Source: Comamonadaceae bacterium
GTDB lineage: Bacteria; Pseudomonadota; Gammaproteobacteria; Burkholderiales; Burkholderiaceae_C
Direction: 5' to 3'
Length of the DNA: 64,000 nt
NCBI GenBank assembly: GCA_009996515.1
Contig: JAACZV010000007.1
Location: forward strand, 10,482-74,481
Shown: piece after piece, positions 7,960 to 39,353 of the stretch
How the letters are laid out: the number at the start of each line of letters is the position of its first letter
How positions within the stretch are numbered: the stretch's first letter is position 1
Notes under the pieces: generated by a model
The model's input: only the letters and a program-made list of their open reading frames with translations
What the model was told of the DNA's origin: nothing
Databases searched by the model: none
Position numbers and translations under genes: made by a program

Positions 7960-8104
7960 TGCACGAGCACCACCCTCGCGGGGTGGCGTTTGTTCGAAAG
8001 CGGCGATTCTCCGTCGGGCCGCCGCGTCTTGTGCGACGCAGCAAAACCACAACGCCCGGGCTTGACGCCCGCCGGGCGGCGGGCGTAGGCGTGGGCGGCC
8101 CGCC

Positions 8105-33433: not shown

Positions 33434-34690
33434 ATGGATACCGCAGTCACCCGACCCGACATCACCCAGCTGCGCGTCAACGGCCCGCGCCTGTGGGACT
33501 CGCTGATGGAACTGGCGCAGATCGGCGCCACCGACAAGGGCGGCGTCTGCCGCCTGACTCTGACCGACCTGGACAAGCAGGGCCGCGACCTCGTCACGCG
33601 CTGGGCACGCGAGGCGGGCATGACGGTCACGGTGGACAAGATCGGCAACGTCTTCATGCGCCGCGCCGGCCGCAACAACGCGCTGCCGCCCATCATGACC
33701 GGCAGCCACATCGACACCCAGCCCACCGGCGGCAAGTTCGACGGCAACTACGGCGTGCTGGCCGGCCTCGAGGTGGTGCGCACGCTGAACGACCATGGCG
33801 TCGAGACCGAGGCGCCCATCGAGGTCGCGTTCTGGACCAACGAGGAAGGCTCGCGCTTCGTGCCCGTCATGATGGGCTCGGGCGTGTTCGCCAAGGCCTT
33901 CACGCTGGAACATGCCTACGCGGCCACCGACACTGCAGGACTGACGGTCAAGGGCGAGCTGGAGCGCATCGGCTACATCGGCGAGCAGCAGCCCGGCGAC
34001 CACCCCATCGGCGCCTACTTCGAGACCCACATCGAGCAGGGTCCGGTGCTGGAGGACCACGACAAGACCATAGGCGTCGTCACCGGCGTGCTGGGCATAC
34101 GCTGGTACGACTGCGTCGTCACCGGCATGGAAGCCCACGCCGGCCCCACGCCCATGGCGCTGCGCAAGGATGCGCTGCAGGTGGCCACCAAGCTGATGCA
34201 GGAAGTCGTCGCCTGCGCCCACCGCCACCCGCCGCATGGGCGCGGCACCGTGGGCATGGTGCAGGTGCACCCGAACAGCCGCAACGTCATCCCCGGCCGG
34301 GTGAAGTTCAGCATCGACCTGCGCAACGCGACCGACGCACTGTGCGAGGCGATGGACACCGACATCCGTGCGGTGGCCGCGAAGCTGTCGGCCGACAGCG
34401 GCCTGCCCATCGAGATCACGCCCGTCAGCGCCTACCCGGCCCAGCCCTTCCACCCCGACTGCATCGGCGCCGTGCAGAAAGCCGCCGACACGCTGGGCTA
34501 CAGCAACATGCCCGCGGTTTCAGGCGCCGGCCACGACGCCGTCTACATGGCCCGCCTCGCGCCGGCCGGCATGATCTTCATCCCCTGCAAGGACGGCATC
34601 AGCCACAACGAGATCGAGGACGCCAAGCCGGAGCACATCGAGGCGGGGTGCAATGTGCTGTTGCAGGCGATGTTGGAGCGGGCGGGCTGA
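33434..34690 (+). CDS. Zn-dependent hydrolase (beta-ureidopropionase / N-carbamoyl-amino-acid amidohydrolase)
   Basis: GSHIDTQPTGGKFDG, TNEEGSRF, ETHIEQGP, HAGPTPM, SGAGHDA, SHNEIE. Confidence 0.92.
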   Translation: MDTAVTRPDITQLRVNGPRLWDSLMELAQIGATDKGGVCRLTLTDLDKQGRDLVTRWAREAGMTVTVDKIGNVFMRRAGRNNALPPIMTGSHIDTQPTGGKFDGNYGVLAGLEVVRTLNDHGVETEAPIEVAFWTNEEGSRFVPVMMGSGVFAKAFTLEHAYAATDTAGLTVKGELERIGYIGEQQPGDHPIGAYFETHIEQGPVLEDHDKTIGVVTGVLGIRWYDCVVTGMEAHAGPTPMALRKDALQVATKLMQEVVACAHRHPPHGRGTVGMVQVHPNSRNVIPGRVKFSIDLRNATDALCEAMDTDIRAVAAKLSADSGLPIEITPVSAYPAQPFHPDCIGAVQKAADTLGYSNMPAVSGAGHDAVYMARLAPAGMIFIPCKDGISHNEIEDAKPEHIEAGCNVLLQAMLERAG

Positions 34691-34709
34691 AGCCCGTTTG
34701 ATGGGGTGA

Positions 34710-35468
34710 TCAGGCCGCTAACAATTCTTTAAAACCTTCCCGTGCGGACCACGGGATCGGAGTTATGTCGTAGTTCCTGAGTGCGTCCTTCACAGCATCG
34801 CCAATCTTGTGCTCGCGATCATTCAACACCGCATAAGCCAGTGAATCCGCCGGGCGAACATCCTTCGTATCCACCCATGCGAACGCCACACTTTGGGCGT
34901 TATCTTTGTTCGGGTTGTTGATTACTCGGAGAATTCGCTCAGGAGCTTGGCGAGACTTCGGCACGACGAAGTCAAACTGATGGCTATATCTGCTGCGCCC
35001 CACAAATGTCACACTTGGCGAGTAGCGAACGTCCGCCTCATCCAGCCATAAGGCCACATCCTCAAAGAAAAAGCTCTCTACGTTGGCTCGGGCAACGAAG
35101 AACAAATCGTTGACCGCGAGAATCGCTTGCAACAAGCTATGTTTGCGCAGAGAAAAATTCTCGGGAAATGCTCGTACGACAAGCGCTTCGCCGTTCATTT
35201 GAACGCCGAATCCGTTCAGCGTTGAAGCCAGAAGCGCTTTTCGCCTTGGCGTATCTATTTCGCAGCCCGATTGCGCCAAGTCCGCAAGCGTGTAACCGTC
35301 GTCCGTTAGCAACCACTCCTCACCTTCCTTGCGAAGATAAATTTGGATGTAGTCGTTGTGCCGATCCAAGTAGGGTGTGGTTATTTCCAGCCAACCGTTA
35401 AGCTCGCGCAAGGACGTCTTAGCCTTGAGCCAGTCATAGTATCTCCCAATGAGATCAGGCGCATTCAT
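34710..35468 (-). CDS. DUF1828/DUF1829-like protein
   Basis: N-terminal EITTPYLDRHNDYIQIY...LTDDGYTL; C-terminal GRSRYSHQFDFVVP...FAWVDT. About 50% GC. Family assigned from memory of the motifs. Confidence 0.78.
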   Translation of the reverse strand: MNAPDLIGRYYDWLKAKTSLRELNGWLEITTPYLDRHNDYIQIYLRKEGEEWLLTDDGYTLADLAQSGCEIDTPRRKALLASTLNGFGVQMNGEALVVRAFPENFSLRKHSLLQAILAVNDLFFVARANVESFFFEDVALWLDEADVRYSPSVTFVGRSRYSHQFDFVVPKSRQAPERILRVINNPNKDNAQSVAFAWVDTKDVRPADSLAYAVLNDREHKIGDAVKDALRNYDITPIPWSAREGFKELLAA

Positions 35469-35911
35469 ACGGAGAACAGGCCTCTAGAAATGTTCGGTTG
35501 CTCTACAACGTTGCAGTAGCGCATGAAATCCAGCAGCACTTGCCAAGCATCATTCGGATCAGTTAGCAGCCCATCAGGCACGTCAAATGCCCACTTGTCC
35601 CCAAATCCCTCACGATACAGATGCAGGTGTGGCACACCCACCTCACTACCGTCGGGATTTCGATGAGGAGCTGCAAAATCCAACCTTGCCAAAACAAATA
35701 CGTGCCGCCCACGCATTTGATAGCCAGTCTTTAGAGAAATTCTTTTCCGATTGATATCGAGAGAAAAACGCTCCCGACCGTCCTTGGAAATCAGCGGCAA
35801 CTCGACACGCCCGCCGAAGTCCGGAAAGGCGACGGGCTTCTGCAGCACGGCAACTTTTTCTAGCCGCAGAAGCACGTCGGCATCGCTTTGCGCAAGACCG
35901 TCGTCAGCCAT
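35465..35911 (-). CDS. DUF6978-like hypothetical protein
   Basis: 148 aa with LARLDF...HRNPDG...PHLHLYREGFGDKWAF...DFMRYCN. RBS GGGAGAGAG upstream. Stop overlaps the ATG of the next gene (ATGA). Confidence 0.72.
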   Translation of the reverse strand: MADDGLAQSDADVLLRLEKVAVLQKPVAFPDFGGRVELPLISKDGRERFSLDINRKRISLKTGYQMRGRHVFVLARLDFAAPHRNPDGSEVGVPHLHLYREGFGDKWAFDVPDGLLTDPNDAWQVLLDFMRYCNVVEQPNISRGLFSV

Positions 35912-36029
35912 GACTCTCTCCCTTTTTTGCTGATTGTGTCAGCGCAGGGAAGAACCCAACGATAGGAACAAGCGCTAGGCGTCGAGAGTCCGTACCGCGA
36001 TTAGCGTTGTGGCAGCAAGGCTGGTCAAG

Positions 36030-37889
36030 TTACCCGTCCAGCTGACTCAAATCCCTCACCGCCCCCTTGTCCGCCGACGTCGCCAGCAGCGCATAGGCCT
36101 TCAGCGCCGCGCTCACCTTGCGCGGGCGCGGCTGAGCCGGCTTCCAACCCTTCGCATCCTGCTCCGCACGGCGCTTCGCCAGCTCTTCGTCGCTGACCAG
36201 CACGTCGATCGTGCGGTTCGGAATGTCGATGCGAATGCGGTCGCCATTGCGCACCAGGCCGATGGCGCCACCCGCTGCCGCCTCCGGCGAGCAGTGGCCG
36301 ATGGACAGGCCCGAGGTGCCGCCGGAGAAGCGGCCGTCCGTCAGCAGCGCGCAGGCCTTGCCCAGGCCCTTGGACTTGATGTAGCTCGTCGGGTAGAGCA
36401 TCTCCTGCATGCCGGGGCCGCCCTTGGGGCCTTCGTAGCGCACCACCACCACGTCGCCGGCCTTGACCTGGTCGTCCAGGATGTGGGCGACCGCCTCGTC
36501 CTGGCTCTCGACCACATGGGCCGGGCCTTCGAAGACCAGCAGGCTGTCATCCACGCCGGCCGTCTTCACGACGCAGCCGTCCAGCGCGATGTTGCCGCGC
36601 AGCACGGCCAGGCCGCCTTCCTTGCTGAAGGCATGGTCGAACGAACGGATGCAGCCCTCGGCGCGGTCCAGGTCCAGGCTGGGCCAGCGCGTGTTCTGGC
36701 TGAAGGCCACCTGTGTCGGGATGCCGGCGGGGCCGGCCATGTAGAAGGTCTTGACCGCGTTGCTGGGCGCACGGGCGATGTCCCACTGGTCCAGCGCGTC
36801 CTTCATGGTCTTGGCGTGCACCGTGGGCACGTCGGTGTGCAGCTTGCCGGCGCGGTCCAGCTCGCCCAGGATGGCCATGATGCCGCCGGCGCGGTGCACG
36901 TCCTCGATGTGGTACTTGTTGGTGTTGGGCGCCACCTTGCACAGCTGCGGCACGTCGCGCGACAGGCGGTCGATGTCGGTCATGTCGAAATCGATACCGG
37001 CCTCCTGGGCCGCGGCCAGGATGTGCAGGATGGTGTTGGTGGAGCCGCCCATCGCGATGTCCAGCGTCATCGCGTTCTCGAAGGCCTTCTTGCCGATGGC
37101 GCGCGGCAGGATGCTCTCATCCTCCTGCTCGTAGTAGCGGCGGCACAGCTCGACGATGGTGCGGCCGGCCTGCTTGAACAGCTGCTCGCGGTCCGCATGC
37201 GTGGCGACCACCGTGCCGTTGCCCGGCAGGCTCAGGCCCAGCGCCTCGGTCAGGCAGTTCATGGAGTTGGCCGTGAACATGCCCGAGCAGCTGCCGCAGG
37301 TCGGGCAGGCCGAGCGCTCGACCTCGGCGAGGTCGGCATCGCTGACCTTGCTGTCGGCGGCCATGACCATGGCGTCGATGAGGTCCAGCTTCTTGATCTC
37401 GATCTTGCTGGTGCCCGGCACCGCCAGGCGCACCTTGCCGGCCTCCATCGGGCCGCCGGACACGAACACGACGGGGATGTTGAGCCGCATCGCGGCCATC
37501 AGCATCCCGGGGGTGATCTTGTCGCAGTTGGAGATGCACACCAGCGCGTCGGCGCAGTGGGCGTTGACCATGTACTCGACCGAGTCGGCAATGATGTCGC
37601 GGCTGGGCAGCGAATACAGCATGCCGTCATGGCCCATCGCGATGCCGTCGTCCACGGCGATGGTGTTGAACTCCTTGGCCACGCCGCCCACGGCCTCGAT
37701 CTCGCGGGCCACCAGCTGGCCCAGGTCCTTCAGGTGCACGTGGCCGGGCACGAACTGGGTGAAGGAATTCGCGATGGCGATGATGGGCTTGGAGAAGTCA
37801 TCGTCCTTCATGCCCGTGGCGCGCCACAGCGAGCGGGCGCCGGCCATGTTGCGGCCGGCGGTGGAGGTCTTGGAGCGGTAGGTGGGCAT
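36030..37889 (-). CDS. ilvD: Dihydroxy-acid dehydratase
   Basis: [62 protein letters not shown]. Confidence 0.97.
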
Positions 37890-38055: not shown

Positions 38056-39165
38056 CTAGGCCCCTTGATGCCGCGCCAGAAACCGCCGCATCGTCGGGTC
38101 CATCAGCCCGCGCTTCTCGATGATCTGGCTCAATTCGCCACCGCCGGTGCCGAACAGGTTGAGTTCCAGCGCCAGGGGCCCGCCATCGGCCAGGGCGATG
38201 TCCCATTGCTGGAAGCGCAGCTTCGGGAAGACCAGCGCCGCGCGCTCGACGAAGGCACACACCTCGGGCCAATCGGGCACGCTCAAGCCCAGCAGGTCGG
38301 CCCCCGTGTCGGGGTGGCGCTGCAATTCGCGACGGCGCACGCCGCTGCCACTGACAACCCGCGTTACCCGGCCGTCGCTCAGGTCCAGCCCCGCAGCCAG
38401 GTTGCCGGTGACGCCATCGTTGAAGTTGTCATTCATGTTCTTTCCCGTCGGCAGCTTCCAGAACGCCCGGTGGATGAGCGGCCCCTCCGTGTCGTCCAGC
38501 AACACCATCACGCGCAGGCTGGTGACCAGGCCCCCGATCAGCGGCACCAGGCGCGCATCCGGCGCCACCGGGGTTTGCAGCAGATAGCCCAGCTTCTCGT
38601 GATCGAACAGGGATGCGGCAAATGCCTGCACCGCCAGGCGCTCGCCACTGCGCAGGCACAGGCTGTCGGTCGCCGCGTCGTAACGCTCGGCGAAGTAGGC
38701 GCCACGCCCGAAGCCACTGGCCGCCGGTTTTCCAAAGAATGGATAGTTGGCAGGATCGCGCAACCAGGCGTGAAGTGCCGGCAGGTCCTTCAGCGGCCGG
38801 GCGGTTTGCAGCATGCGCTCCCGCCCCGGCAGGTAGATCGCACGCGTCTCGGTGCAGCGTATCCCCTGGGCGGCCAGCAGTTCGGTGGTCAGCACCTTGT
38901 CCAGCCCCAGACAAGCCCAGGACCGTTCATTGAGCCGGTCCAGCCTCGCCTCCAGACGCCAGCCGACAAACTCGGCCCTGGCCGCCAGCGTGAGCTCGGG
39001 GTCGAACAGGCGGTAGGTGTAGTAGTCCCCGGGGCCCAGCCGGGCCTCGCCTCGCATCAAGCGCGCGATGTCCCTCAGCTGTCGCCAGGTCGCAGGTCCT
39101 CCCTGAGCTTGAGCCTCGCGGGACTGCTGCCGGAACTCCCGCAGCTTCCTGTGAATGTTCTTCAT
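38056..39165 (-). CDS. Sugar-transfer-associated ATP-grasp domain protein
   Basis: [55 protein letters not shown]. Strong GGAGG RBS. Confidence 0.8.
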
Positions 39166-39353
39166 GGCTCCTCCCCCCTTGTTGCCAGGGTTGAGCCACT
39201 CTAGCGCCGGGGATCTCGAAGCCGCAGGGCCTAACCGGCCATTCGACCTGGACAAAACCCCGATTGCCGGCCGCGCGCCGGCAAGCCCTAAGCCGGGCAG
39301 GCCGGCCTGCAATCGCCGTGCGGCTTCGGCCGGCGTCTCGTCCCGCTTCGCAA

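What the first reader, a model, noticed from the sequence alone, without database searches (positions are those of the whole stretch)
34710..35911. Low-GC two-gene islet (DUF6978-like + DUF1828/DUF1829-like): candidate undescribed defence or toxin-antitoxin system
Seen: two translationally coupled genes (ATGA overlap at 35465-35468) at about 47-52% GC on hand-counted lines, against 70%+ around them. They sit alone between the convergent 3' ends of the ureidopropionase gene and ilvD, with no integrase or transposase. Gene 1 has an R-L-D-x4-H...P-H-L-H histidine cluster, which could be a metal or catalytic site and loosely recalls DUF6516/TumE-type proteins. Gene 2 has an N-terminal domain (TPYLDRHND...LTDDGYT) and a C-terminal HQFDFVVP...ERILRVIN segment that could be a PD-(D/E)XK-like nuclease core. 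Known (from memory): these DUF families recur as a pair in prophages and mobile DNA, and I know of no assigned function. Inference: a compact sensor plus effector anti-phage or TA module.
Basis: partly seen in the sequence, partly recalled or inferred. Interest (0 to 1): 0.8.

Follow-up and report, generated by a model that had tools for sequence, protein, structure and literature searches.

The report
Foreign PDC-M24 defence-candidate gene pair
A 1.3-kb piece of foreign DNA in a Roseateles/Pelomonas-like chromosome carries two overlapping genes (DUF6978, then DUF1828/DUF1829) that match a catalogued but never tested anti-phage candidate, PADLOC "PDC-M24"; the find is real but already listed, and how it works is unknown.

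Summary
Two minus-strand genes lie between an amidohydrolase gene and ilvD: A (35911-35465, 148 aa, DUF6978) and B (35468-34710, 252 aa, DUF1828+DUF1829). They overlap by ATGA. Their GC is 0.50-0.54 and GC3 0.54-0.60, against flank GC3 of 0.94.

The pair is not undescribed. It matches PADLOC PDC-M24A/B (E 2e-51 and 1e-103), one of 145 untested candidates found by embedding in R-M/BREX/DISARM loci.

All 80 relatives' loci lack the pair, six of which keep the same flanking genes. A ~94%-identical sister lineage has it at the same site under strong purifying selection (dN/dS 0.04 and 0.02).

Homologues usually end type I R-M operons (hsdM-hsdS-A-B). Others follow type III R-M genes, sit beside Borvo, RhuM or Abi2, or lie in prophage lysogeny modules, including an archaeal virus.

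B's C-terminal domain has a PD-(D/E)xK nuclease fold, but the catalytic triad is conserved only in this clade. A has no fold relative of known function and carries an invariant R/H/N/D/H/H cluster. Copies with A damaged and B full-length argue against "B toxin, A antitoxin".

Best reading: a two-subunit mobile defence module. This is a new member of a known candidate kind, with mechanism open.

The parts
34691..36029 (.). Whole foreign islet: everything between the stop codons of the amidohydrolase gene and ilvD (1339 bp, GC 0.53)
   Evidence: Composition. Homology to Roseateles/Pelomonas relatives stops at the two flanking stop codons. The same flanks lie 200-2860 bp apart, with other or no cargo, in six relatives.
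35465..35911 (-). Gene A, 148 aa: DUF6978 = PADLOC PDC-M24A. Beta-rich fold with no solved or annotated structural relative
   Evidence: Pfam E 2.5e-39. PADLOC PDLC04538 E 1.8e-51. AF2 pLDDT 88, pTM 0.85. Foldseek against PDB: best E 0.11. Foldseek against BFVD: one uncharacterised phage protein only. dN/dS 0.044 against the sister lineage.
35609..35686 (-). Codons 76-101 of A: conserved cluster R76-x-D78...H83-x-N85-P86-D87...H95-x-H97-x-Y99-x-E101 (candidate catalytic or metal site)
   Evidence: In 58 representatives at <=52% identity to the window's A, K19, R76, H83, N85, P86 and H97 are invariant; D87, H95, Y99, R67, E47 and C133 are >=90% conserved. The cluster holds in phage and archaeal-virus copies.
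35465..35468 (-). ATGA stop/start overlap of A and B (translational coupling)
   Evidence: Sequence. The same 4-nt overlap occurs in 12 of 18 co-directional pairs from diverse sources.
34710..35468 (-). Gene B, 252 aa: DUF1828 + DUF1829 = PADLOC PDC-M24B
   Evidence: Pfam. PADLOC PDLC04539 E 1.4e-103. phrog_5059 E 2.6e-70. AF2 pLDDT 85. dN/dS 0.019 against the sister lineage.
35112..35378 (-). B residues 31-119: DUF1828 domain, an acidic alpha+beta domain (pI 4.9 for residues 1-101). Family-wide invariant P32, D35, D39, D56, G68, R76; Q114 and D121 lie in the following helix
   Evidence: Pfam. Secondary structure. Conservation. pI.
34740..35000 (-). B residues 157-243: DUF1829 domain with a restriction-endonuclease-like (PD-(D/E)xK) fold, basic (pI 9.4 for residues 147-252). 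D166/K171/E177 are conserved only in this clade. [D/E]137, G157, R178, W198, D200 and R205 are family-wide
   Evidence: Foldseek hits: VC1899 (8e-5), Cdn1, Can2, Card1, Bax1, XisH (TM 0.62 on target), MspJI, McrC and R2 endonuclease domains. Alignment. A paper's supplementary table lists DUF1829 in Pfam clan CL0236 PDDEXK.
35912..36029 (-). 118-nt leader between the ilvD stop and the A start. Shine-Dalgarno GGGAGAG at 35916-35922, 4 nt before the ATG. No sigma-70 consensus and no terminator, so read-through from ilvD is possible
   Evidence: Sequence. Scan found 0 promoter-like sites and no terminator on this strand here. The leader is ~90% conserved in sister lineage L226.
34691..34709 (.). 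19-nt spacer between the convergent stop codons of the amidohydrolase gene and B; no terminator-like hairpin
   Evidence: Sequence, scan.
33434..34690 (+). Flank, not part of the islet: hydantoinase/carbamoylase-family Zn amidohydrolase, native GC
   Evidence: NCBIfam NF006769 E 6e-196, TIGR01879. 93-94% aa identity to Pelomonas/Roseateles species.
36030..37880 (-). Flank, not part of the islet: ilvD (dihydroxy-acid dehydratase), same strand as A and B, directly upstream of them
   Evidence: NCBIfam NF009103, 1176 bits.

Best explanation
The islet is a horizontally acquired, solo copy of the mobile two-gene module that PADLOC lists as phage-defence candidate PDC-M24. It landed in a variable intergenic spot downstream of ilvD in one Roseateles/Pelomonas-like lineage and has since been kept by selection.

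Shown:
- A and B are made from overlapping cistrons.
- They are inherited and evolve as a unit.
- They travel with restriction-modification operons, other defence genes, plasmids and the lysogeny modules of temperate phages.

Inferred mechanism:
- A and B act as one two-subunit anti-phage (abortive-infection-type) effector, not as a toxin held by an antitoxin.
- B is the nucleic-acid-binding scaffold. Its basic C-terminal restriction-endonuclease-fold domain binds DNA or RNA, and in this clade, which keeps E136/D137, D166, K171 and E177, probably also cuts it.
- B's acidic DUF1828 domain, with an invariant Asp cluster, docks or regulates A.
- A is a small protein with a fold that has no characterised relative. 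Its invariant Arg/His/Asn/Asp/His/His pocket supplies the family-wide catalytic or metal/ligand-sensing site.
- In most relatives the pair is co-translated as the last cistrons of hsdM-hsdS. This suggests it backs up type I restriction. The copy here has no R-M partner and must work autonomously.
For: Identity:
- PADLOC PDC-M24A/B matches, E 1.8e-51 and 1.4e-103; Pfam.
- PDC systems are defined as untested candidates embedded in BREX/DISARM/type I R-M loci. PDC-M24 is listed in the preprint's supplement.

Horizontal transfer and retention:
- GC3 0.54/0.60 against 0.94/0.95 in the flanks.
- By far the lowest-GC kilobase in the 64-kb window.
- None of 80 relatives' loci has A or B. Six keep the same flanks with 200-2860 bp of other or no cargo.
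- A ~94%-identical lineage has the same insertion, with dS 0.20/0.28 (similar to flanks at 0.23-0.33) and dN/dS 0.044/0.019.

Linkage of A and B:
- ATGA overlap in 12 of 18 co-directional pairs.
- A lies directly upstream of B in 74 of 80 metagenome loci.
- B follows A in the 12 of 16 A-anchored places where the contig runs far enough; the other 4 end inside or just past a short ORF at B's position.
- Pairwise identity matrices of A and B correlate at r = 0.945; Mantel 0 of 2000 permutations reach this.
- One representative is an A-B fusion.

Defence context:
- hsdR-hsdM-hsdS-A-B followed by RhuM, an RT or Abi2.
- Type III mod-res beside the pair or B.
- Of 55 metagenome loci with >=1.5 kb upstream of A, 30 have hsdM/hsdS upstream on the same strand. 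In 18 the hsdS ORF ends at or within 400 nt of A's start.
- Borvo (BovA)-A-B on IncP-1 plasmid pRSB223.
- The pair lies between repressor and integrase, in Lj965 two genes from a superinfection-exclusion gene, in Lj965, Javan642 and Staphylococcus phage 37. It also occurs in haloarchaeal virus Humcor1.
- E. coli homologues of B are scored 'predicted novel defense gene'.

Structure:
- B's C-terminal domain matches PD-(D/E)xK nucleases and has pI 9.4.
- A has conserved active-site-like residues and no fold relative of known function.

Not a B-toxin TA: eight loci have A truncated, frameshifted or absent beside a full-length B ORF.
Against: - No experiment on this system was found in the literature searched.
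- Guilt by association is the only functional evidence, and some PADLOC candidates have failed when tested (PDC-M63 and PDC-S04).
- This copy is not near any defence gene or mobile element.
- The canonical nuclease residues of B are not conserved family-wide. D166 becomes N/H/P and E177 becomes Q/T/S. B may therefore be non-catalytic.
- I could not inspect model coordinates or predict the A-B complex, so contact between A and B, and the geometry of either putative site, are untested.
- A's pI (6.1) is not what is usual for a nucleic-acid-cleaving toxin.
- Some frameshifted A copies may be metagenome assembly errors.
- Six viral loci have a convergent B-> <-A arrangement, so fixed-stoichiometry co-translation is not universal.
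Confidence: 0.5

Rival explanations
1. Toxin-antitoxin or addiction module with the roles reversed from the first reader's guess. A is a small toxin of a new fold, with the His/Arg/Asn pocket as its active site. B is its neutraliser: the acidic DUF1828 domain plugs the toxin, and the basic DUF1829 domain binds DNA for autoregulation. The pair stabilises R-M operons, plasmids and prophages, and may also abort phage infection.
For: - Decay pattern: A is lost or broken while the B ORF stays full-length in eight loci. No orphan A was seen in 16 A-anchored places, though 4 of those contigs end too early to show a full B.
- A's catalytic-looking residues are invariant family-wide, whereas B's nuclease triad is not.
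- B's N-terminal domain and linker are acidic (pI 4.9 and 4.4) and its C-terminal domain is basic (pI 9.4).
- In the one characterised system whose second protein carries a (weakly called) DUF1829 region, HipA + DUF3037/DUF1829 (DS-6/HipAD, PDC-M66), that protein is the neutraliser: deleting it is toxic, and it is predicted to bind DNA.
- Neighbours are often TA pairs.
Against: - No similarity of A to any known toxin, by Pfam, NCBIfam, PDB sequence or fold.
- A is not basic (pI 6.1).
- B evolves no faster than A, unlike typical antitoxins.
- B is larger than usual for an antitoxin and has no HTH/RHH domain.
- The DUF1829 call in DS-6B is weak (HHpred probability 0.78).
- The convergent gene arrangement in six loci is unusual for TA operons.
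- The sample of A-anchored loci is small and comes from only two proteins.
Confidence: 0.22
2. One reading: A is a sensor or antitoxin, and B is a PD-(D/E)xK nuclease toxin that degrades DNA when released.
For: - B's nuclease fold.
- In the window's clade E136/D137, D166, K171 and E177 are invariant or nearly so.
- The gene order, small protein first, is the commonest TA order.
Against: - Full-length B ORFs persist beside missing, truncated or frameshifted A in eight loci. An unrestrained toxin would not allow this.
- D166 and E177 are replaced in whole subclades that still keep the pair.
- A's pattern of invariant His/Asn/Asp/Arg residues is not what is seen in antitoxins.
Confidence: 0.13
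3. Not immunity at all. The pair is an accessory of mobile DNA or of R-M systems, for example a regulator of R-M establishment, a recombination or excision-control factor like the XisH/XisI pair, or a DNA-repair helper. On this reading it is carried here as inert cargo.
For: - B's C-terminal domain matches XisH excision-control proteins best in proportion to target length (TM 0.56-0.62 on target).
- The pair is tightly co-translated with hsdS.
- It lies next to integrases in several elements.
Against: - Strong purifying selection on a solo copy with no R-M system, integrase or element around it argues for a host-beneficial, autonomous function.
- The pair also sits beside unrelated defence genes (Borvo, Abi2, RhuM, RT).
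- XisH-like similarity is limited to the generic nuclease core.
Confidence: 0.1

Closest known systems
PADLOC-DB v2 'PDC-M24' (multi-gene phage defence candidate; Payne et al. preprint 10.1101/2024.01.29.577857)
   Same: Both proteins match its A and B models end to end. Gene order and adjacency are the same. Many homologues fetched here are attached to type I R-M operons, which is how the candidate was defined.
   Different: This copy is solo, between housekeeping genes, with no R-M, BREX or DISARM nearby. PDC-M24 itself is only a prediction: no phenotype, structure or mechanism has been published in the literature searched.
DS-6 / HipAD / PDC-M66 (HipA-like kinase + DUF3037-DUF1829 protein), a validated defence system
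   Same: A two-gene PADLOC multi-gene candidate in which one partner is annotated with a DUF1829 region. That partner neutralises the other and is predicted to bind DNA.
   Different: The other partner there is a HipA kinase, not DUF6978. The N-terminal domain is DUF3037, not DUF1828. The DUF1829 call in DS-6B is weak (HHpred probability 0.78). Homology between B and DS-6B was not tested here.
CARF-nuclease effectors Can2 / Card1 / Cdn1 and VC1899 (PDB 7bdv, 6xl1, 9u49, 1xmx)
   Same: These are the best Foldseek matches of B (E 8e-5 to 4e-3). They share the layout of an N-terminal non-catalytic domain plus a C-terminal PD-(D/E)xK nuclease domain.
   Different: TM is only 0.32-0.36 on the query, with RMSD above 10 A over the long alignments, so essentially only the nuclease core matches. 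B's N-terminal domain is predicted as an antiparallel beta-meander with helices, not a Rossmann-like CARF. No CRISPR or cyclic-oligoadenylate genes were seen in any neighbourhood. The D...ExK triad is incomplete.
PrrC / RloC-type abortive-infection modules embedded in type I R-M operons
   Same: Genomic logic: an extra cassette transcribed with hsd genes, which suggests a second line of defence coupled to restriction.
   Different: No sequence or fold similarity; PrrC and RloC are ABC-ATPase anticodon nucleases. Any coupling of A-B to R-M activity is speculation. The pair also occurs without R-M, as here.
XisH (PDB 2inb, 2okf), fdxN-element excision-controlling factor, encoded with XisI
   Same: Compact PD-(D/E)xK-like core that superposes best on B's C-terminal domain (TM 0.56-0.62 on target, RMSD 3.8-4.0 A). 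It is also encoded as one of a small gene pair.
   Different: About 10% identity. There is no DUF1828 domain and no DUF6978 partner. No excision element surrounds this islet.

Membership tests
PADLOC PDC-M24 (candidate system) | A protein matching a PDC-M24A model | tested here: met
   PDLC04538 E 1.8e-51, residues 6-146 on model positions 3-145 of 146
PADLOC PDC-M24 (candidate system) | A protein matching a PDC-M24B model | tested here: met
   PDLC04539 E 1.4e-103, residues 3-252 on model positions 4-255 of 255
PADLOC PDC-M24 (candidate system) | The two genes adjacent on one strand | tested here: met
   4-nt overlap, both on the minus strand
PADLOC PDC-M24 (candidate system) | Found embedded in or attached to R-M/BREX/DISARM loci (the basis of the candidate) | tested here: not met
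   This copy has no hsd, mod/res or integrase relatives in the 64-kb window. Homologues do: 30 of 55 loci have hsdM/hsdS upstream, and. PADLOC's detection rule does not require embedding, so membership by model match stands.
Anti-phage defence system (functional class) | Reduces phage plating or aborts infection when expressed | not testable with these tools
   No published test was found. Only context and ML predictions exist.
Pfam DUF6978 / DUF1828 / DUF1829 | Score above the Pfam gathering threshold over the full model | tested here: met
   135.1, 98.2 and 110.1 bits against cut-offs of 29.6, 22 and 22.2; full model coverage
PD-(D/E)xK nuclease superfamily (B, residues ~132-252) | alpha-beta-beta-beta-alpha-beta core fold | tested here: met
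   AF2 secondary-structure order H(..144)-E150-E162-E178-H188-E210. Foldseek probability 0.97-1.00 to VC1899, Can2, Card1, Bax1, XisH, McrC and R2 endonuclease domains (0.80-0.93 to MspJI). Pfam clan CL0236 as cited in a paper's table. This rests on a predicted model.
PD-(D/E)xK nuclease superfamily (B, residues ~132-252) | Conserved catalytic D ... (D/E)-x-K residues on strands 2 and 3 | tested here: inconclusive
   The window clade keeps D166 (strand 2), E177 (start of strand 3), K171 and E136/D137, but there is no K two residues after E177. Across the family D166 becomes N/H/P and E177 becomes Q/T/S/D.
PD-(D/E)xK nuclease superfamily (B, residues ~132-252) | Metal-dependent nuclease activity | not testable with these tools
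   Needs purified protein
Type II toxin-antitoxin system | Two small adjacent co-transcribed genes | tested here: met
Type II toxin-antitoxin system | One partner related to a known toxin family, the other carrying a DNA-binding antitoxin domain (HTH/RHH/AbrB etc.) | tested here: not met
   No such Pfam, NCBIfam, PDB or fold hits for either protein
Type II toxin-antitoxin system | Toxicity of one partner, neutralised by the other | not testable with these tools
   Indirect only: full-length B ORFs persist beside broken or absent A in eight loci
CARF-nuclease effectors (Can2/Card1 type) | N-terminal CARF (Rossmann-like) cyclic-oligoadenylate sensor; association with type III CRISPR | tested here: not met
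   The predicted N-terminal domain is a helix plus a four-strand meander, not beta-alpha-beta. No CARF Pfam hit. No CRISPR genes in any of the annotated neighbourhoods.
   Apart from one sub-threshold chance match (KN_motif, E 0.16), DUF6978 is the only Pfam hit at E<=1. No PDB fold match. A direct profile-profile comparison with DUF6516 was not possible, because no member sequences were in hand.

The most novel reading that the evidence does not exclude
A (DUF6978) is an enzyme of a previously unseen fold and is the real effector of the system. B holds it in check through its acidic DUF1828 domain and reads nucleic acid with a largely non-catalytic nuclease-fold domain. As the last cistrons of hsdM-hsdS operons, the pair acts as a guard that fires when a phage anti-restriction protein disables type I R-M. 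This would be a PrrC-like retaliation logic built from entirely different parts and shared by bacteria, their prophages and an archaeal virus.
Probability: 0.12. Interest if true: 0.75.

Novelty: new member of a known kind. Interest (0 to 1): 0.42.

Why it matters
For this genome it is an ordinary event: one small defence-type cargo gained by horizontal transfer and kept by selection.

For the field, PDC-M24 is one of many catalogued but untested candidates. The analysis here gives reasons to test it and says how:
- It is widespread. There are 3916 B relatives at E<=1e-5 and 888 A clusters at 50% identity. It occurs in Proteobacteria, in Firmicute prophages and in an archaeal virus.
- It is habitually the last pair of cistrons in type I R-M operons.
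- One subunit has no fold relative of known function and carries an invariant His/Asn/Asp/Arg pocket.
- The expected 'nuclease = effector' reading is weakened by residue conservation and by the decay pattern.

If the pair protects against phage, it would add a new protein fold and possibly a new R-M-coupled mechanism to bacterial immunity.

Tried and rejected
- NCBIfam: no model for either protein.
- PDB by sequence, single sequences and profiles: only chance hits.
- Foldseek of A against PDB and BFVD: nothing interpretable.
- Fusion partners of A among 10 longer representatives: no informative domains. There was one A-B fusion and one membrane-protein N-terminus; the rest are probably mis-called starts.
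- A as a paralogue of B's DUF1828 domain (local look-alike 'HRNPD..HLHLYREG' against 'DRHND.YIQIYLRKEG'): hhalign probability 0.1%, rejected.
- Insertion signatures: no meaningful direct or inverted repeats at the islet ends, no tRNA, and no integrase or R-M relatives in the window. The junctions cannot be placed more precisely than the two stop codons, because intergenic DNA is unalignable between species.
- Promoter and terminator scan: no sigma-70 consensus upstream of A and no terminator after ilvD or B.
- Rfam on the islet: one sub-threshold chance hit to a eukaryotic IRES model.
- Transcript evidence: only one soil-metagenome run holds the full sequence, and no RNA runs were found. Not pursued.
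- Scan of viral contigs with the diverse A alignment failed because no conserved stretch was usable. The closer alignment found only 2 loci.
- 'Decaying junk': rejected by dN/dS of 0.02-0.04.
- 'Vertically conserved at this locus': rejected, absent in all 80 relatives' loci.
Full report
**1.

- The ORF list shows two minus-strand genes: A at 35911..35465 (148 aa) and B at 35468..34710 (252 aa). Window positions 35465-35468 read TCAT, which is ATGA on the coding strand, so A's stop overlaps B's start.
- 300-nt windows give GC 0.50-0.54 across the pair, against 0.64-0.72 on either side. At 1-kb resolution the 35001-36000 bin (0.525) is by far the lowest of 64. The next lowest is 0.640, the bin covering the islet's other end, and the rest run 0.642-0.77.
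- Third-codon-position GC is 0.54 (A) and 0.60 (B), against 0.94 and 0.95 in the flanking genes.
- The domain names it recalled are correct. A is a full-length DUF6978 (E 2.5e-39). B is DUF1828 (residues 31-119, E 3.4e-28) plus DUF1829 (residues 157-243, E 7.7e-32).
- The flanks are a hydantoinase/carbamoylase-family Zn amidohydrolase (33434-34690, +), preceded by a dihydropyrimidinase, and ilvD (36030-37880, -).
- A and B are on ilvD's strand, directly downstream of it. A has a strong Shine-Dalgarno sequence (GGGAGAG, 35916-35922).
- The 118-nt leader has no sigma-70 consensus, and there is no terminator after ilvD or after B. Read-through from ilvD is therefore possible. This is inference.

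**2. The pair is already catalogued**

- Against PADLOC-DB v2, A matches PDC-M24A (E 1.8e-51) and B matches PDC-M24B (E 1.4e-103), both end to end.
- PDC systems are 'phage defence candidates'. They were picked because homologues are embedded in BREX, DISARM or type I R-M loci. The authors describe the 145 PDCs as untested.
- PDC-M24 appears in their supplementary cassette list as FAM_00129>>FAM_00065.
- Full-text searches for PDC-M24, the DUF names and the Pfam accessions found no functional study.
- E. coli DUF1828/DUF1829 proteins are listed as 'predicted novel defense gene' in the DefensePredictor tables. I did not find them in the supplementary tables as stored. The same table places DUF1829 in Pfam clan CL0236 (PDDEXK).
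- PHROGs has both families with unknown function. NCBIfam has neither.

**3. Origin of this copy**

- The amidohydrolase is 93-94% identical to those of Pelomonas nitida, Roseateles saccharophilus and related genomes, so the host is a Roseateles/Pelomonas-like betaproteobacterium.
- None of the 80 fetched relatives' loci encodes A or B.
- Six close relatives keep the convergent amidohydrolase/ilvD pair. The gap between the genes is 200, 313, 811, 867, 1593 or 2860 bp at native GC (0.65-0.73). It is either empty or holds other genes, such as a trypsin-like protease or a small secreted protein.
- Alignment with these relatives breaks exactly at the two stop codons. The islet is therefore 34691-36029, inserted in a naturally variable spot.
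- There are no flanking repeats and no tRNA. No integrase or R-M relative was found in the window.
- Four short metagenome contigs about 94% identical in DNA carry the same ilvD-A-B-amidohydrolase arrangement.
- Between the window and the longest of them, dS in A and B (0.20 and 0.28) equals that of the flanking gene ends (0.23-0.33). dN/dS is 0.044 for A and 0.019 for B.
- So the islet predates that split, is inherited vertically within this narrow lineage, and is under strong purifying selection. It is neither junk nor a family-wide resident.

**4. The pair elsewhere**

*Abundance and linkage*

- B has 3916 relatives at E<=1e-5. A has 564 relatives in the word-index search and 888 clusters at 50% identity.
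- A and B are inherited together:
  - A lies directly upstream of B, co-directional, in 74 of 80 metagenome loci found with B. Five more have no room for it, and one lacks it.
  - B follows A in 12 of 16 places found with A. In the other 4 the contig ends at or just inside a short ORF at B's position.
  - The ATGA overlap is kept in 12 of 18 co-directional pairs.
  - The pairwise identity matrices of A and B correlate at r = 0.945. In a Mantel test, 0 of 2000 permutations reach this.
- A second architecture exists in six viral loci: B and A converge, with their 3' ends abutting (-8 to +5 nt).

*Neighbourhoods*

- hsdR-hsdM-hsdS-A-B followed by RhuM (Castellaniella), a 686-aa reverse transcriptase, or Abi2.
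- hsdM-(TA genes)-hsdS-A-B.
- Type III mod-res followed by A-B in two settings. In a third, mod-res lies divergently upstream and only B is present.
- A TA-rich island in a betaproteobacterium.
- Borvo (BovA)-A-B on IncP-1 plasmid pRSB223.
- Among 55 metagenome loci with at least 1.5 kb upstream of A, 30 have hsdM/hsdS upstream on the same strand. In 18 the hsdS ORF ends at or within 400 nt of A's start, often exactly at it. This is a lower bound, because only four reference HsdS sequences were used.
- In Lactobacillus prophage Lj965, Streptococcus phage Javan642 and Staphylococcus phage 37, the pair sits in the lysogeny module between the repressor and the integrase. In Lj965 a superinfection-exclusion gene lies two genes downstream. 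The upstream ~150-aa genes there are DUF6978 / PDC-M24A.
- The haloarchaeal virus Humcor1 also has the pair.

These contexts support a defence or addiction role. They do not prove one.

**5. The proteins**

*Protein B*

- The model has pLDDT 85. It shows an N-terminal alpha+beta domain (a helix, a four-strand meander, two helices, a hairpin), a long helix (102-144), and a C-terminal alpha-beta-beta-beta-alpha-beta domain.
- Foldseek against PDB matches PD-(D/E)xK nucleases: VC1899 (E 8e-5), Cdn1, Can2, Card1, Bax1, XisH (TM 0.62 on target, RMSD 3.8 A), MspJI, McrC and the R2 endonuclease domain.
- The long alignments to CARF nucleases have RMSD above 10 A, so only the nuclease core is shared.
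- The C-terminal domain is basic (pI 9.4). The N-terminal domain and linker are acidic (pI 4.9 and 4.4).
- In the window's clade, E136, D137, D166, K171 and E177 are invariant or nearly so.
- A broader alignment includes the convergent clade and Firmicute prophages. There D166 becomes N, H or P, and E177 becomes Q, T, S or D.
- The family-wide invariants are [D/E]137, G157, R178, W198, D200 and R205. In the DUF1828 part they are P32, D35, D39, D56, G68, R76, Q114 and D121.
- The nuclease fold is therefore supported. A canonical active site is not conserved family-wide.

*Protein A*

- The model is confident (pLDDT 88, pTM 0.85). It has two helices and about eight strands.
- It has no PDB fold match (best E 0.11). 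In BFVD it matches only one uncharacterised phage protein.
- Among 58 representatives at <=52% identity to the window's A, K19, R76, H83, N85, P86 and H97 are invariant. E47, R67, D87, H95, Y99 and C133 are >=90% conserved.
- The H-x-N-P-D ... H-x-H core persists in phage 37 and Humcor1.
- This pattern looks like a catalytic or metal-binding pocket. That is inference; I could not inspect coordinates.

**6. Which partner does what**

- Eight loci carry a full-length B ORF beside an A that is 5'-truncated (L125, L130), frameshifted or interrupted (L132, L137, L157), or absent (L096, L123, L162).
- Some of the frameshifts may be assembly errors. The truncations and absences are not.
- This is hard to reconcile with B being a toxin that needs A as its antitoxin.
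- It fits two models. Either both proteins are needed for activity, or A is the harmful or catalytic partner and B its neutraliser or regulator.
- A precedent exists. The only characterised protein with a DUF1829 call, the DUF3037-DUF1829 partner of a HipA-like kinase (DS-6/HipAD, PADLOC PDC-M66), is the neutraliser and a predicted DNA binder. That DUF1829 call is weak (HHpred probability 0.78).
- I therefore favour a two-subunit effector: B as the nucleic-acid-binding scaffold, possibly still a nuclease in this clade, and A as the conserved catalytic or sensing subunit. The reversed-TA model is the main rival.

**7. Verdict**

- The finding is a true, horizontally acquired copy of the two-gene module, maintained by selection.
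- The system is a listed candidate rather than undescribed, and the proposed division of labour is not supported by the residue and decay evidence.
- Novelty: a new, solo, chromosomal member of a known candidate kind.
- Interest is moderate. The instance is ordinary. The system is untested, widespread and habitually attached to type I R-M operons, and one subunit has a fold with no characterised relative.

Noticed in passing
window 34691-36029; L012, L014, L016, L017, L019, L021 (gap between the amidohydrolase gene and ilvD): The intergenic spot between the convergent amidohydrolase and ilvD genes is a variable cargo site in Roseateles/Pelomonas. It is empty (200-313 bp) in two genomes. In others it holds native-GC genes: a trypsin-like serine protease, a small secreted Gly/Asp-rich protein, or a cupin-like ORF.
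   Followed up: partly
L103, L104, L106, L107, L111, L113 (viral contigs, around locus position 8000): Phage contigs carry short ORFs that are DUF1828-only: the B N-terminal domain, 125-149 aa in five of the six (a 229-aa call in L111), up to 66% identical to the window's B. They have no DUF1829 domain and no A gene beside them. They may be decayed copies, or conceivably decoys against the system.
   Followed up: partly
L100, L101, L102, L105, L109, L110, L112, L114 (viral contigs): An alternative architecture: B and A are on opposite strands, converging, with 3' ends abutting or overlapping (-8 to +5 nt) instead of the A->B overlapping operon. In this clade B's D166 and E177 are mostly replaced.
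   Followed up: partly
L129, L142, L143, L148, L174, L176, L192, L196, L198, L199, L201, L203 and others (metagenome loci): The hsdS reading frame ends exactly at, or within a few nucleotides of, the A start. hsdM-hsdS-A-B therefore looks like one translationally coupled operon, with A-B as its last cistrons.
   Followed up: partly
L125:6440-7762: A decayed copy sits next to a tRNA gene. A has lost its first 85 codons while B is full-length. A 1403-aa NACHT-WD40 gene lies just downstream.
   Followed up: partly
L120 (plasmid pRSB223, JX469828.1:39207-42377): A broad-host-range IncP-1 conjugative plasmid carries Borvo (BovA, E 2e-150) immediately upstream of an A-B pair whose B is 83% identical to the window's. 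This is a plausible type of vehicle for the transfer.
   Followed up: partly
L231:1998-3181 (Halorubrum virus Humcor1): An archaeal tailed virus encodes the same A->B pair (A-profile E 1.7e-16, B-profile E 2.5e-23) next to its Orc1 replication gene. The module therefore crosses the bacteria/archaea boundary.
   Followed up: partly
window 35609-35686 (A) and 35330-35380 (B): A and B share a short local look-alike: A has 'HRNPD...HLHLYREGFGDKW' and B has 'DRHND.YIQIYLRKEGEEW'. Profile-profile comparison gives probability 0.1%, so it is treated as chance.
   Followed up: yes
window 38056-39204 (-): The gene upstream of ilvD (a ~380-aa product) has no NCBIfam match at E<=1e-10. It was not examined further.
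   Followed up: no
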